A stretch of DNA of 64,000 nt from Saccostrea echinata (lineage: Eukaryota): contig NW_026889767.1 in assembly GCF_033153115.1 (NCBI RefSeq), positions 1,054,001 to 1,118,000 of the forward strand, written 5' to 3'. Of the stretch, positions 3,471 through 18,764 are shown piece by piece. A model generated the notes under the pieces. The model had not been told where the DNA came from, ran no database searches, and saw nothing but the letters and a program-made list of their open reading frames with translations. A program made the translations under genes and the position numbers. Positions within the stretch are counted from its first letter, which is position 1. Every line of letters starts with the position of its first letter.

Positions 3471-3855
3471 TCATGGTATCTTTAAAAAAATAATGTTTAG
3501 GTATTTTATTAATAAATTTTCAAAGTAATATAATTAAATAAAAAAAGACATGTAAACTACTTATATAAGTCTACATTAAATTTTATTCAAGTGTAAATAA
3601 ACATGTGATACTGATAGCCCTTCCAAATGAAATGCTTTTTTTCAATTCTTAAAAACTTTCACTTAAATGGCTGTTTGTGGTTTAATTTTTCTTAACAATT
3701 TTAACTTTAATGACTGTTTCTAGTTTAATTTACAAAATCATTCACTATGTAAATGTATGATCAGCTAACAATAATTTTATGTCTTTATTTTTTAAGCTTA
3801 TAAGCTTGACTTCAAGGTCTTTAACGACGCAAGAACGATGATTCCTTTGTTTCAG

Positions 3856-4274
3856 GATATGAATTAAGACATTATGGACCTGATTGCTCACAGATGTGTA
3901 GTGTTAATTGTAAAAGGCAGGCGTGTGACAATGTCACTGAATACTACACTACAGATGTAAGAGCAGATTCTATTTAGATAAATGTGAAAAAAGTTGCAGT
4001 ATATCATGACTGTCAACTAGCAACAGAGACACGGAGGAATATGAGGGAGAATGTCCAGTTGGCAAATATGGAAATAATTGTAATAAAACCTGCTACGATA
4101 ATTGTAGAAATGGATGCAGTAAAATCAATGGTTATGCAATTCTGGATATATCATCGGAAAAATCGGTGCTTACTGTCTCCAGACCTGTGGTGATGGGTGT
4201 GTTTCCGGTCATCGTCAAGCCGATTAGAGTTGCGCGCAATTGCAAGTCAGGGTGGCAAGGCTATCAATATGACG
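3856..4274 (+). pseudogene. Degenerate EGF-repeat exon of receptor paralog AB (inverted half)
   Basis: tttcag acceptor. Reads YGPDCSQMCSVNCKRQACDNVT...CPVGKYGNNCNKTCYDNCRNGC...CKSGWQG, with frameshifts and a stop. Confidence 0.8.
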
Positions 4275-5339
4275 GCAAAACCATAGAAACATTAGAATCA
4301 AAACTGTCCTACTACCATACCAAGTTTGGATTTGTCTTCAATAACATCTTAGACAAGTATGTCGTGATATACTAGCCGACAAAGGAGAGTTGTGAATAAA
4401 AATAATTAGTTTTAACAAAATGTTAAAAATTGCAGACTATTTTCTGTAAGGAAATGTAAGATTAACGTACGGTAATCATGCTCAAAAGTGAAATAAAATA
4501 ATACAAACTTAGAACACTGAACTCTAAAAATTGGGAAAAAAACAACAGGGAAATAAAATGAAAAAAGTATTTTTAAACGACACTGGAAATGATATTAAGC
4601 ATTTTTGGAAAACGTTTTTGTTAAAAAAATATTTGTTTAACTTATTTTTTCTTAGCTAACTATATGAGGATGTAAAGAATGAGGGTAAATGTGATTGTAA
4701 GTGAAGATATCCAATGAGCAGTCTACAGTCCTCCAAAATATATTTGTTCAGGAAAATCTCTACAATTATAGTTATTAATCGACTATCAGAAATGTGTATA
4801 ACGACAGTGGTAATTTCTTATTAGCACCGATCAAAAGTTTTAAAGATATATAGTCAAATCTCCTTATAATGACCTTAACGGGACCAAGATAAAAATTCGA
4901 GATATCAAAAATTTGAGATAATGAGATTAAGATACAATAAAAAAAAGTTATTGGGACTGCAAACTATCAGTGTTCGAGAAAATGAATCTCAACGATATTT
5001 CTTTTGTGTTACTGAACTTCATCTATGAAAATATAGAAAGATCGATAGTGTAGGTATGCATCTTAAGGGAATCCCTGTTATGAATCTGAATTGTGGATAT
5101 TATTTGTGATATTCAGGAGACAAAACTTGAATTATTTTTTTTTTTCAAAGAATGTGTTTTTTCTATGTTACAAAACACAGTTTACAGTAAATTACTGGTA
5201 ATTATTGAAATTACAACATGATTACTTGTTAAGTAATATGAACAGATAGAGTTTACTGTTTGATGATTCATTTTGGTAACATCTTTTTTTTCGGAACTGA
5301 AATAATGTACATTGTACATCATCAAATATCTATATGTAG

Positions 5340-5475
5340 AATGCAGCCAAGCTCATTACAGACCAGAATTGCTCTGTAATCCAATGTGTTTGAAGAGAAC
5401 CTGTTTTTCAAACAACGGGTAGTGTAAAAAGGGATTCCAAGGCATTTTACTCTTTATAAACGTGTTTATGGAAAG
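5340..5475 (+). pseudogene. Degenerate single-EGF exon of paralog AB
   Basis: tatatgtag acceptor. ECSQAHYRPE..CNPMCLKRTCFSNNG*C, homologous to 27760-27860 (minus). Confidence 0.7.
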
Positions 5476-5525
5476 GAAAGGCTATTTCTTTTTTCTAATC
5501 TATCAAGGTGCATTTAAATACTAAA

Positions 5526-5559
<34 letters not shown>

Positions 5560-6138
5560 AAAAAAAAAATGTAATCTCTTAACTGCAACGCTGTGTGCAA
5601 ATAAACTGAGTAACGCGCCCTAACGCGTTACGAAAATTTGTTTGCACACACCGTTGCAGCTATGAGACTATATATTTCAAAAGATAATGGTTCACTGCTT
5701 ATATTTTCATATCTTAACTCCTTGTCTTGTCTGAAAATCTGATTTATATTTCAAAATACCTATTTTATCTAATATAGTAAATTACAAATAATGGAAGAGC
5801 CATTACAAGAGCTTATGTTCAATATGATCTTGGATTTTGATTTTCACTTATGAAGTTGCACTTACATGGCGTTCAACGTTTGTGACGTAAAAATAAAACG
5901 CATGCTTTTACCTTCTGACGCTCACCCACCTCCCCAGTCAGCGTTATGTCGTTATGAATGCATTTGCTTTCCATACACTTCATAAGCAAAAGATATTTGA
6001 GATGTAAATATTATTAATCAAATTGTTTATTTATTTATTTTTTACATTAGAAGGGAATCCCAAGTACCTGTATTTTCATTCCATGATGACAGGGATACAT
6101 TTTTTTTTATTTTTGCATAATTCATTCAATTTCCACTT

Positions 6139-6507
6139 CCAAACGTTAGAAAGCTGTTTCAGACCATCTTTCTGATTGTGATGTGAGTTTTAATTGATCT
6201 CATTTTTAGTATCGAATACATATTATTAAACATGTACCTGAAATAGATCAGAGTAAAAAGAAATTTTCATTTAGTCTTCAGCAATATTTAAGATAATTTT
6301 TCTGTACATTTTTAACCTTTAACTGTCTTTTTATTGTATACTTTATTACTACAATATTAGAGAAAACGTTTCTTACACAGCAAAGCAGGATACTAGCCAA
6401 CAGAATTCAACATTATATGCAAACACTATGTATGACAGAGTGAAAGATCACACTATCAAAATATTGGACAATAAAGTCAACCTTCTCATTACGATGAACT
6501 GAAGTGA
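6139..6507 (+). pseudogene. Internally deleted TM exon and degenerate ITAM tail exon of paralog AB
   Basis: 6139-6182 matches both ends of the TM exon 27057-27168 without its core, followed by gtgagt. 6361-6507 reads ...NTMYDRVKDH, frameshift, YQNIGQ*SQPSHYDELK*. Confidence 0.75.
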
Positions 6508-16434: not shown

Positions 16435-16587
16435 GTACTTTTCCATTGTTCAGGGGAGAACGTCACATGAAATGATATTCTTCATTTTGGTTTTTATGAC
16501 GATTCTTTTGTATATAGGAATTTGTATATTTTAGTGTTTTATTAACGTTAATCTGATATTTATAAAATGTCAGGAGCCATTTTCCCA

Positions 16588-16599
16588 AGCAGGGGAGAA
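16588..16599 (+). promoter_or_regulatory. Polypurine tract
   Basis: AGCAGGGGAGAA immediately before the 3' LTR. Confidence 0.85.
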
Positions 16600-17234
16600 T
16601 GTCACAGATGTTGTGTTTTAATTTGTACATAAAATTGGTGCGCATTGCCAATCGAATGCGTTCGCTGCGTTTGTTTGTGTTGTGTGTCTTAGTGTGAATG
16701 TTTTGGGAGATCATGTGACATTGTTTATTTTTGTATTTCCACGTGTTTCCGGTTAGGTGACCTAATGTGACCTTACAGCTGACCAATATCCGACTGTTTT
16801 ATCTTATTAATATGCATGTTTTAATTTCTGCACCGAGTATTTAAGCACAGTACCCGCCAATTCTCGACCCCCACGCTTTTTGCCTTTACGGTAGAAGTCT
16901 TACATATATTTGAAACATAAAAGTATTCTTTAAAGTATTACTTGGAGTTAATTTAACTGGATTCCCGGTAAGCTTTCTGTTTACCTTTATTATAATTATC
17001 ATATAAATGTATTTTATAATTTACTTTTATTAATTAATCCCGACAGCGAACAATCATATAATTTATGTGTTGATAATGTCTGATGTTAAATGTAAAGTAT
17101 TCGTTTTGTGTGTGTATTGTGTTGTGAGAGTGTGTTTAATTTATACTTTGTAGGTTTTTTGTTATAAGCACTGTAATAAATATAGTTGTGCCGAATCCAG
17201 TGTTGGATTTTATCCTACAAAAGACCCGGTGACG
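16600..17234 (+). repeat. 3' LTR (635 bp)
   Basis: Direct repeat of the 5' LTR. Terminal A replaced by G, followed by TSD TAAG. Confidence 0.97.
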
Positions 17235-17560
17235 TAAGGATACCCACTTCCGCCCCAGCCCGGGGTTGAACTCTAGACCTACGGAATCTTTCTCCTAGCA
17301 GTACAGAAACAGCGCGTTAGACCGCTCGGCTATCTAGGCAAGTCAAAAAACTTGCTTTCGATGCCGATGGAATTCTCGCGTCGCTGTTCTACACTACACT
17401 ACACGGAGAATGGAAGTGAGAATTCCATTGGCATGGAAAGCAAGTTTTTTGACTTGCCTAGATAGCCGAGCAGTCTAGCGCGCTGTTCCTGCACTGCTAG
17501 GAGACAGATTCCGTAGGTCGACAGTTCAACCCTGGGCTGGGGCGGAAGTGGGTATCCTTA
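17235..17560. repeat. Long inverted repeat with two divergent tRNA(Leu/Ser)-like units
   Basis: Arms ~17235-17377 and 17418-17560. Each contains ATAGCCGAGC(G/A)GTCTA (A box) and AGTTCAACCC (B-box-like). Confidence 0.85.
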
Positions 17561-17730
17561 TAAAAGTGAATCTTTGTGCTTTCTGTATTAATATTTCNNN
17601 NNNNNNNNNNNNNNNNNNNNNNNNNNNNNNNNNNNNNNNNNNNNNNNNNNNNNNNNNNNNNNNNNNNNNNNNNNNNNNNNNNNNNNNNNNNNNNNNNNNN
17701 NNNNNNNNNNNNNNNNNNNNNNNNNNNNNN

Positions 17731-18557
17731 CCTACTTTCGTAAGATAATGGATTTCCTTAATTATATTCCTCAAAATGTAGACCCAATCACCATTTTCGT
17801 CAGTTTTGATGTGACAAGTTTGTACACAAATATCCCACATGCTTTAGGACTGGAAGCAGTAAGTTACTGGATAGACAAACATCCGGATATTATAAATAAA
17901 CGATTCTCAAAGGAATTCATTTTAGAAGGACTTAAGTTAGTTTTAGAAAATAATCATTTCCACTTCAACAATGAGTTCTATCTACAAATAAAAGGAATAG
18001 CTATGAGGACAGAAGTTCCTTGATATGCAACCTTAGTGATGGGATACTTAGAAGATCAATTATATGGGAAAATACCGGAACTATTTGATGACAAATTCAG
18101 TAACAATATTAAAAATAATTGGAAACATTACCTAGACAACTGCGTCATATTTTGGACCAAGAGTGAAGAAGACTTAATGAAATTCCATTTACTTCTTAAT
18201 AACCTCTATGATTCGATGCAATTTACAATAGAAAAAAGATATGCGGAACTTCCATTTTTAGATCTACTTATTATAAAGAATGGATCCTATATAACTACAG
18301 ACTTATACTGTAAACCTACGGACACGCATCAGTATTTGGATTTTAGATCGTGCCACCCGTCACACACAAAACCTAATATCCCTTTTAATTCAGCACGAAG
18401 AATTTGTACAATTATTACAGATACATGTAGAACCCTGCGTTCTAGACGTTTGGAAGAATTAAAAATATATCTACTGCGACAAAACTATTTGTTTGATTTA
18501 ATCAACGCTGGAATAGGAAAGGCGTCCAAAATTCCAGTAGGGAACCTTAGAAATCCT
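17731..18557 (+). mobile_element. Penelope-like retroelement RT fragment (degenerate)
   Basis: VSFDVTSLYTNIPH, YLQIKGIAM, HYLDN (degenerate RYLDD), LPFLDL, KPTDTHQYLDFRSCHPSH. Confidence 0.92.
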
Positions 18558-18764
18558 GGAGTACTTTATAATTTAGCAGTGTCGCAAATGCACTGGGCAT
18601 CCCGCACAAAAAAAGGAACGAGTATATTCCTTAATTTTAGATCTAGATGTAAGACAAATTATTACTGAAAAAAAAAATAATTCCTCCAAATCTTCACCTG
18701 AATTACAGACACTTTAGAAATTGATTTGTAAGAAAATAAAAAGGTTCAAGTTTTAGAAGCTTGC

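What the first reader, a model, noticed from the sequence alone, without database searches (positions are those of the whole stretch)
3471..18560. ~15-kb inversion with two reconstructable junctions that breaks a receptor gene and a Penelope element
The Penelope RT stops at ...VGNLRNP (18557, +). Its expected linker and endonuclease continue on the minus strand from 3470 (RRADDTTDDGKIVS..TQNPQN). Reciprocally, the intron of the EGF gene (minus, ending ~18561) continues at 3474 on the plus strand (TGGTATCTTTAAAAAAATAATG...). That joined intron aligns with the uninterrupted paralog C intron (~29235-29340). Flipping the segment puts all paralogs on one strand and joins signal/EGF1 to EGF2/EGF3/TM/tail. 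There is no long homology at the breaks, suggesting end joining.
Basis: partly seen in the sequence, partly recalled or inferred. Interest (0 to 1): 0.7.

Follow-up and report, generated by a model that had tools for sequence, protein, structure and literature searches.

The report
Inversion with transposon hairpin scars
A 15-kb piece of chromosome is flipped, splitting an old retrotransposon and a receptor gene that is now dead, and six extra bases at its two joints look like the palindromic scars of a cut-and-paste transposon, which likely caused the flip while jumping out.

Summary
The inversion is confirmed and sharper than reported: 3472-18556 (15,085 bp). In 19 of 19 other Penelope copies fetched, base 18556(+) runs straight into 3471(-). 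The intron halves join as in three unbroken paralog sequences. No base is lost and six are added: CA and TGGA.

These fit a vanished EnSpm/CACTA transposon in the intron. A 2-bp target duplication (CA) plus two palindromic P bases per end predicts CA/TGCA: 5 of 6 match, chance 1.3-6.6%, model chosen after seeing the data. The genome supports this chemistry independently. A resident family makes 2-bp duplications (39 of 48 copies), and 5 of its 9 other copies carry duplication plus 2 P bases (p=2e-7). The matching +4 footprint is enriched among indels (7 of 26, 1.8 expected).

Likely mechanism: hairpin-opened excision ends were joined to a second, blunt break.

The gene is an EGF-repeat receptor pseudogene with lesions on both sides and most of its TM exon deleted; that the inversion killed it is unproven. 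No reads and no unflipped allele were available. The inversion is ordinary; the V(D)J-like joint signature is the interesting part.

The parts
3472..18556 (.). Inverted segment, 15,085 bp (7,023 bp without the LTR element and its duplication)
2733..3471 (-). 3' half of the split Penelope copy (linker, GIY-YIG endonuclease, part of the 3' UTR), decayed; 2733 is a truncation edge, since family copies continue beyond it
   Evidence: 82-88% identical to the 19 copies; intact copy L007 has RVT_1 + GIY-YIG
3472..3473 (+). Two added bases (CA) at the left junction; the reverse complement of the adjacent dinucleotide, read as P bases
   Evidence: absent from Penelope copies and from paralogs C and D; model
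3474..3855 (+). 3' part of intron 2 of gene A; its first two bases are one copy of the inferred 2-bp target duplication
   Evidence: first 89 nt 86.5% identical to paralog D
3856..4274 (+). Gene A exon 3 (EGF-like repeats): three frameshifting indels, a stop, GC donor, 7 Cys lost
5340..5470 (+). Gene A exon 4: frameshift, stop, donor lost
6150..6182 (+). Remnant of the TM exon (33 nt of 82-94)
   Evidence: (window against paralog C)
6352..6507 (+). Gene A exon 6 (cytoplasmic tail), with 3- and 13-nt deletions
9176..17233 (+). Young Gypsy-type LTR element inside the segment (passenger; LTRs differ at 4 of 634 positions; flanked by TAAG)
17235..17560 (.). Palindromic dispersed repeat (148-nt arms) into whose tip the LTR element inserted (passenger)
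17731..18556 (+). 5' (RT) half of the split Penelope copy; its 5' end is not readable in the window
   Evidence: about 91% identical to the copies
18557..18560 (+). Four added bases (TGGA) at the right junction; predicted TGCA = 2 P bases + second copy of the duplication, one mismatch
18561..18764 (-). 5' part of intron 2 of gene A (GC donor)
   Evidence: 89% identical to paralog D over the first 120 nt; sequence
18765..19117 (-). Gene A exon 2 (EGF-like repeats), with 30- and 208-nt deletions
26938..30108 (-). Paralog C: uninterrupted across the homologous intron site (about 29306-29321); itself a pseudogene (no exon 3, stops and frameshifts in exon 2)

Best explanation
The segment 3472-18556 is inverted between a base-exact break inside a Penelope copy and a break in intron 2 of an EGF-repeat receptor gene, and it likely arose when an EnSpm/CACTA transposon with a 2-bp target duplication excised from that intron and its hairpin-opened flanks were joined to a second break instead of to each other. 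Steps: (1) shown: both junctions, no base lost, six bases added. (2) inferred: an element sat at the intron dinucleotide CA, duplicating it. (3) inferred: excision left both flanks as RAG-type hairpins, opened 2 nt past the tip, so each flank carried CA plus TG. (4) inferred, cause unknown: a second, net-blunt break formed in the Penelope 7-15 kb away, perhaps a failed local re-insertion by the same transposase. (5) inferred: crosswise end joining inverted the interval; the element was lost; one added base later changed (C to G). A two-step path (one-ended transposition, then excision) would leave the same sequence and cannot be told apart. The gene is a pseudogene today; the inversion has no likely function.
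For: Junctions. Length and sequence: 2+2+2 = 6 bases predicted, CA/TGCA against observed CA/TGGA; strings within one mismatch are 55 of 4096 (one site, P=2), 135 of 4096 (P 0-3) and 271 of 4096 (both-site model). Resident chemistry: 50 Transposase_21 matches; two 100% identical 10,930-bp copies with 2-bp duplications; 39 of 48 complete copies of that family have a plain 2-bp duplication, CA/TG in 8; 5 of the 9 others have duplication + 2 P bases on one end, against 1.8% in shuffled pairings, p=2e-7; one of them (L230) has exactly CA + TG; three empty sites agree with this reading for L211. The predicted ordinary footprint (ab, rc(ab), ab) makes up 13 of 40 four-base indels with a 2-3-nt repeat (controls 4 and 3), and 7 of 26 with an exact 2-nt repeat against 1.76 expected, p=0.002. 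Hairpins are opened mainly at +2 by Artemis (PMC2175297, section 14). CACTA shares motifs with Transib and RAG1 (PMC12730594, passages), which make flank hairpins (PMC5499845, passages). One change in six bases has about a 30% chance at 6% divergence (my arithmetic).
Against: One of six bases mismatches. The model was the last of several tried on the same six bases; the pooled exact-fit models already explain 562 of 4096 random inserts. No element or terminus of the family is at either junction. The intron site scores at the 10th percentile of the family's real target sites (weak profile). The pre-break intron sequence comes from paralogs 86-89% identical, not from an allele. The blunt Penelope break is not explained. 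A different hairpin model fits 6 of 6. The +6 footprint class was not enriched (1 event). The indel set mixes allelic and paralogous pairs and is not polarised.
Confidence: 0.6

Rival explanations
1. Two chance double-strand breaks were cross-joined by ordinary end joining, with 2 and 4 untemplated or polymerase-theta-type bases added; no transposase was involved.
For: No homology and no element at the breaks. Six bases can fit some hairpin model by chance 11-14% of the time when all models are pooled. The region is very unstable: only 39.6 kb of 230 kb chained between the haplotigs at 92% or better.
Against: Zero loss at all four ends together with additions of exactly 2 and 4 bases is not typical of chance breaks (own knowledge). 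The additions match the chemistry of a resident family to within one base (1.3-6.6%).
Confidence: 0.22
2. A hairpin-forming transposon with a 2-bp duplication and a Hermes/Ac-type 1-nt offset sat in the Penelope (at TG); one-ended transposition into the intron inverted the interval, and a later excision removed it.
For: Explains all six bases without a mutation; 12 of 4096 strict, 45 of 4096 with an intact target end, 115 of 4096 with free duplication length. It also explains the Penelope break. The chemistry is documented for Ac/Hermes (PMC2921059, passages).
Against: Three informative resident copies (L204, L230, L243) fit only the no-offset type (read from the flanks). Offset-type footprints are not enriched: 1 of 175 clean indels, controls 5-9; 8 of 71 in allelic alignments, 7 of them at homopolymers. 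No family with this chemistry and a 2-bp duplication was found among the five family groups examined.
Confidence: 0.11
3. The flip is an assembly or library artefact.
For: No reads could be laid on it; no second haplotype covers it.
Against: No repeat joins the two ends, both reciprocal junctions are base-exact, the added bases form a structured pattern, and the contig is 6.27 Mb. A chimeric read would need two such joints.
Confidence: 0.04
4. Penelope itself made the rearrangement, by ectopic recombination, twin priming or its own endonuclease.
For: One break is inside a Penelope; 5 of 19 family copies carry inverted 3' segments upstream.
Against: No second copy or microhomology product at the other break; the junctions do not match a crossover at the shared CCA. 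Both halves aged alike and share minor alleles with the same copies, as expected for one inserted copy cut later. Twin priming would not keep the intron halves reciprocal.
Confidence: 0.03

Closest known systems
Transposon-induced inversions by alternative (aberrant) transposition, e.g. Gray 2000 as discussed in PMC1952172 (passages); Tam3 inversions in Antirrhinum and Ac reversed-end inversions (recalled, not read)
   Same: A cut-and-paste element is the likely cause; one breakpoint is a donor site; no long homology.
   Different: No element remains at either junction; the only trace is six bases; the element class is an animal EnSpm with a 2-bp duplication.
V(D)J coding joints with P nucleotides (RAG hairpins opened at +2 by Artemis; PMC2175297, abstract and section 14)
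   Same: Full flank kept, plus two palindromic bases; joined by end joining; inversion of the interval.
   Different: Germline, accidental, no signal sequences; flanks carry a target duplication; the partner ends are not hairpin ends.
Flank-hairpin excision by hAT, Transib and MULE transposases (PMC5499845 and PMC2921059, passages)
   Same: Footprints made of palindromic bases at the donor site.
   Different: The resident family shows no 1-nt offset and a 2-bp duplication; its ordinary footprint is +4 (ab, rc(ab), ab).
Inversions by ectopic recombination between element copies (Galileo in Drosophila buzzatii, seen only in the reference list; Penelope at D. virilis breakpoints, recalled)
   Same: A transposable element lies at a breakpoint.
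   Different: The Penelope is cut inside its ORF and has no partner copy; it is a bystander.
Staggered-break inversions with inverted duplications (recalled)
   Same: No element at the junctions; near-lossless joining.
   Different: Stagger alone does not explain the added bases; the duplication is only 2 bp and is extended by palindromic bases.
Hemizygosity and presence/absence variation in bivalves (bioRxiv 10.64898/2026.02.10.705023, passages)
   Same: The locus lies in a roughly 195-kb stretch missing from the other haplotig; CMC-EnSpm is listed there among active oyster elements.
   Different: That work counts insertions and deletions; the passages seen do not treat inversion junctions or footprints.

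Membership tests
Simple intrachromosomal inversion | Two reciprocal junctions that restore both broken sequences | tested here: met
   19 of 19 Penelope copies; 3 of 3 alignable paralog sequences; two further paralog loci (L025, L027) did not align at the site
Simple intrachromosomal inversion | Interval reversed as one block | tested here: met
   Exons 3-6 and the RT half are both reversed relative to their partners; 6.6-9.1 kb has no outside reference
Simple intrachromosomal inversion | Reads or an ancestral allele span the junctions | not testable with these tools
   No run was listed; the other haplotig lacks the region
Penelope-like element | RT and GIY-YIG endonuclease in one ORF | tested here: met
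   L007: RVT_1 7.9e-9, GIY-YIG 7.6e-7, both over cut-off; the decayed window pieces alone had no such hit but are 88-92% identical to L007
Penelope-like element | Both halves from one copy | tested here: met
   20 and 22 private changes in the 350 nt either side; minor alleles shared with L019 and L020 in both halves
Penelope-like element | Target duplication and natural ends | tested here: inconclusive
   3' end truncated, 5' end not readable
EnSpm/CACTA excision product | A resident, recently mobile family with a 2-bp duplication | tested here: met
EnSpm/CACTA excision product | Duplication plus palindromic bases on both donor flanks | tested here: inconclusive
   Left flank exact, right flank 3 of 4
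EnSpm/CACTA excision product | Same footprint type elsewhere in the genome | tested here: met
   5 of 48 copies with 2 P bases; 7 of 26 indels against 1.76 expected
EnSpm/CACTA excision product | Site matches the family's target preference | tested here: inconclusive
   10th percentile of real sites, 39th of random sites; the profile is weak
EnSpm/CACTA excision product | A filled allele with the element at the site | not testable with these tools
   No other allele available
EnSpm/CACTA excision product | Flank hairpin formation by the transposase | not testable with these tools
   Inferred from junction sequences and kinship with Transib/RAG
Ectopic-recombination (NAHR) inversion | Inverted homologous repeats at both breakpoints | tested here: not met
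Staggered-break inversion | Added bases explained by inverted duplication alone | tested here: not met
hAT-type (1-nt offset) footprint | Tip base plus palindrome at the junctions | tested here: met
   6 of 6 with a 2-bp duplication; not with 3 or 8 bp
hAT-type (1-nt offset) footprint | Such footprints or elements occur in this genome | tested here: not met
   1 of 175 indels, controls 5-9
MEGF10/SCARF-like EGF-repeat type I receptor (name recalled) | Tandem EGF-like repeats | tested here: inconclusive
   Cys-rich repeats are plain, but Pfam EGF hits are below cut-off
MEGF10/SCARF-like EGF-repeat type I receptor (name recalled) | Open frame with TM helix and tail | tested here: not met
   Met by paralog D (466 aa over exons 2-6), not by gene A or C
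MEGF10/SCARF-like EGF-repeat type I receptor (name recalled) | Signal peptide exon; orthology | not tested
   A hydrophobic frame at 21131-21208 (-) is only a candidate; no homologue search was run

The most novel reading that the evidence does not exclude
Animal EnSpm/CACTA transposases with 2-bp duplications cut like RAG: they hairpin both flanks with no offset, and the host opens them at +2. This leaves three readable marks in one genome: +4 palindromic footprints, open-and-shut joints (2 P bases between duplication and terminus in about 10% of copies), and element-free inversions with V(D)J-like joints such as this one. Small inversions now filed as 'end joining, cause unknown' could then be traced to transposon excision from sequence alone.
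Probability: 0.5. Interest if true: 0.7.

Novelty: new variant of a known kind. Interest (0 to 1): 0.5.

Why it matters
The inversion alone is one more structural variant in a decayed, hemizygous gene cluster. The junction signature matters more. If right, it shows a DNA transposon rearranging a genome and leaving no copy of itself, and gives a sequence test for such events in other genomes. It also gives in vivo evidence on the excision chemistry of animal CACTA elements, relatives of Transib and RAG, for which I found no paper in nine library searches. The library lacks most subscription journals, and hairpin footprints of plant Spm/Tam1 are, as I recall, described in older work. The two identical 10.9-kb copies are candidates for a direct assay.

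Tried and rejected
Sequencing runs: none was listed for window 2000-8900, so no reads were laid and no RNA holder was listed. Other haplotype: C27 has no counterpart of about C18 898.8-1093.5 kb, so no unflipped allele. Microhomology crossover at the shared CCA: predicts junctions three bases shorter than seen. Stagger only, and palindromes without duplication: no exact fit. Offset-type hairpin model: my first reading; it fits exactly but lost support. First count of +4 footprints: confounded by tandem duplications and multiple registers (P 12, complement control 15); redone per event, where 20 tandem duplications and 39 events with a repeat under 2 nt were set aside from 99. Tc1/mariner footprint: neither break is at TA. 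Leftover element termini: orientation does not fit. Empty sites for L204 and L208: not found. Of five transposase-bearing groups examined, one had 2-bp and one 3-bp duplications and three gave no complete ends. Rfam on the palindrome: only sub-threshold miRNA hairpins. The Atlas gave no result. Earlier findings: none. PMC2686159 and PMC11219922 (passages) held nothing of use. No supplements were read.
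Full report
Setting. The window is 32% GC and lies on a 6.27-Mb contig of a 923-Mb animal assembly. I take it for an oyster-like bivalve from its gene and repeat content; that is an inference and no call names it.

The observation. Self-BLAST shows the strand switch against paralog C. A search with the last 361 nt before the right break listed 42 matches; I fetched the 19 best other copies. In 19 of 19, window 18556(+) is followed directly by window 3471(-). 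An intact copy, L007, has one 675-aa frame with RVT_1 and GIY-YIG over cut-off, so the family is Penelope-like. The two halves are equally aged (20 and 22 private changes in the 350 nt beside the break) and share minor alleles with the same copies, so they come from one copy. On the host side, paralog D and its haplotig twin read straight through the site, with window 3474 and 18561 as neighbours; paralog C agrees; two further paralog loci did not align there. The segment is therefore 3472-18556. Nothing is lost at either site, and six bases are added: CA at the left, TGGA at the right.

The gene. Paralog D has exons 2-6 with GT-AG introns and a 466-aa open frame: Cys-rich EGF-like repeats, a hydrophobic helix and a short tail. 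Pfam EGF hits are below cut-off; the label MEGF10/SCARF-like is recalled. The break is in intron 2. Gene A is a pseudogene on both sides: exon 2 has 30- and 208-nt deletions and a GC donor; exon 3 has three frameshifts and a stop; exon 4 has a frameshift, a stop and no donor; the TM exon keeps 33 nt. Over 293 codons, with one outgroup, pN/pS is 0.60 on A's branch and 0.22 on D's (Fisher p=0.03). That puts about 6% of neutral divergence on A (95% range 1.5-9%), similar to the age of the Penelope copy, which the inversion must postdate. The inversion could be the first hit or a later one. Paralog C is also broken. The other haplotig has no counterpart of about 195 kb that includes window 1-39,480, so there is no unflipped allele to compare, and no sequencing run was listed.

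Reading the six bases. A crossover at the shared CCA, a staggered break, and palindromes without duplication do not fit. My first model, Ac/Hermes-type hairpins with a 1-nt offset and a 2-bp duplication in the Penelope, fits 6 of 6 (12-115 of 4096 by chance; 562 of 4096 if all models are pooled). I then asked what the genome's own elements do. There are 50 Transposase_21 matches. One family has 3-bp duplications; another, ending CCCTTACC..GGTAAGGG, has two 100% identical 10,930-bp copies with 2-bp duplications. Its end motif occurs 57 times. Of 60 distinct 5' ends fetched, 48 copies were complete: 39 have a plain 2-bp duplication, 4 are irregular, and 5 have the duplication plus two palindromic bases between it and one terminus. 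Shuffled pairings give that pattern in 37 of 2061 cases (5 of 9 non-plain copies, p=2e-7). For L211, three empty sites in a repeat family agree with this reading at the cost of one substitution; no empty site was found for two others. Three of the five fit only hairpins without offset, as RAG makes. Offset-type footprints are not enriched (1 of 175, controls 5-9). The no-offset footprint is: of 99 four-base indels in 1.92 Mb compared all against all, 20 tandem duplications and 39 with a repeat under 2 nt were set aside; 13 of the remaining 40 fit (controls 4 and 3), and 7 of 26 with an exact 2-nt repeat against 1.76 expected (p=0.002). One is an allelic pair at 99.2% identity. A first count was confounded and showed no excess over one control.

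Applied to the inversion, an element at the intron CA predicts CA at the left and TGCA at the right, with a blunt Penelope break. Observed: CA and TGGA. Lengths match and 5 of 6 bases match; 55 to 271 of 4096 random strings come as close, by model. Copy L230 shows the same CA + TG end. Against: the mismatch, the post hoc choice of model, no element at the site, a poor target score on a weak profile, and no explanation for the blunt break, although the Penelope site scores like a real target in two of three registers (62-64th percentile). I give this mechanism 0.6, chance end joining 0.22, the offset model 0.11, artefact 0.04 and a Penelope-driven event 0.03.

What is known. Flank hairpins are shown for hAT, Transib, MULE and RAG (PMC5499845, PMC2921059; passages). 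CACTA shares their C(2)C and H(3-4)H motifs, and the clade makes 2-5-bp duplications (PMC12730594; passages). Artemis opens hairpins mainly at +2 (PMC2175297; abstract and section 14). Inversions by alternative transposition are known (PMC1952172; passages; the Tam3 and Ac cases are recalled). Active CMC-EnSpm and wide hemizygosity are reported in oysters (bioRxiv 10.64898/2026.02.10.705023; passages). Nine searches showed no paper on P-base joints of animal EnSpm or on element-free inversions with them; the library is partial, and no supplements were read.

Verdict. The inversion is real with high likelihood (about 0.95) and, as a gene lesion, ordinary. It works like a mis-joined transposon excision with V(D)J-like joints; membership in that class is likely but not shown, because the filled allele is missing. 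New variant of a known kind; interest 0.5.

Noticed in passing
L204, L208/L251, L211/L259, L230, L243 (element ends): 5 of 48 complete copies of an EnSpm-like family carry two palindromic bases between the 2-bp duplication and one terminus, like open-and-shut V(D)J joints; 3 more copies with palindromic duplications could hide the same. Worth a study of its own.
   Followed up: partly
L117:1518 to L118 and L121-L122 (C12): Two 100% identical 10,930-bp EnSpm-like elements about 80 kb apart in opposite orientation, with different 2-bp duplications: a very recent local hop.
   Followed up: partly
L111-L116 (C32, C58): 13.7-kb CACTAC..GTAGTG elements, 99.9% identical, 282-bp inverted ends, 3-bp duplications.
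   Followed up: no
window 1-39480 and C18 upstream to about 898.8 kb: About 195 kb holding several receptor paralogs has no counterpart on the other haplotig; the shared flank from 39481 is only 92-94% identical, against 98% further upstream.
   Followed up: partly
window 9176-17233: Young Gypsy-type element (LTRs 4 of 634 different; gag, protease, RT, RNase H, integrase with frame breaks) inserted at TAAG in the tip of a palindromic repeat.
   Followed up: partly
window 17235-17560: 326-bp palindrome with tRNA-looking arms (by eye; ARAGORN calls nothing there); a high-copy family (1295 first-look candidates), often in arrays with 352-nt spacing. Element type unexplained.
   Followed up: partly
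window 1351-1702: SINE-like repeat containing the only ARAGORN call (tRNA-Thr, 1625-1697, minus); 99.4% identical to a copy on C27, so recently mobile.
   Followed up: no
window 34723-36890: Array with a period of about 168 nt, with related arrays at C18 930 kb, 1021-1028 kb and on C27; probably the subterminal repeats of an element.
   Followed up: no
window 38968-39615 (-): 216-aa gag-like frame with a CCHC knuckle at the edge of the hemizygous block (no informative Pfam hit).
   Followed up: no
window 48695-48828 and 51179-51352; 58104-58733 and 62011-62627: An inverted pair of short-period arrays 2.5 kb apart, and a direct repeat pair of 630 nt at 86%.
   Followed up: no
window 44628-44777 (-) and 52589-52681 (-): Tail exon and a small EGF-like exon of a further paralog, same strand as C.
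   Followed up: no
L004, L012, L015, L017, L018: 5 of 19 Penelope copies have an inverted copy of the 3' region upstream; 10 of 19 are at least 99% identical to L007 near the RT end, not counting L007 itself among the others would give that a young burst.
   Followed up: no
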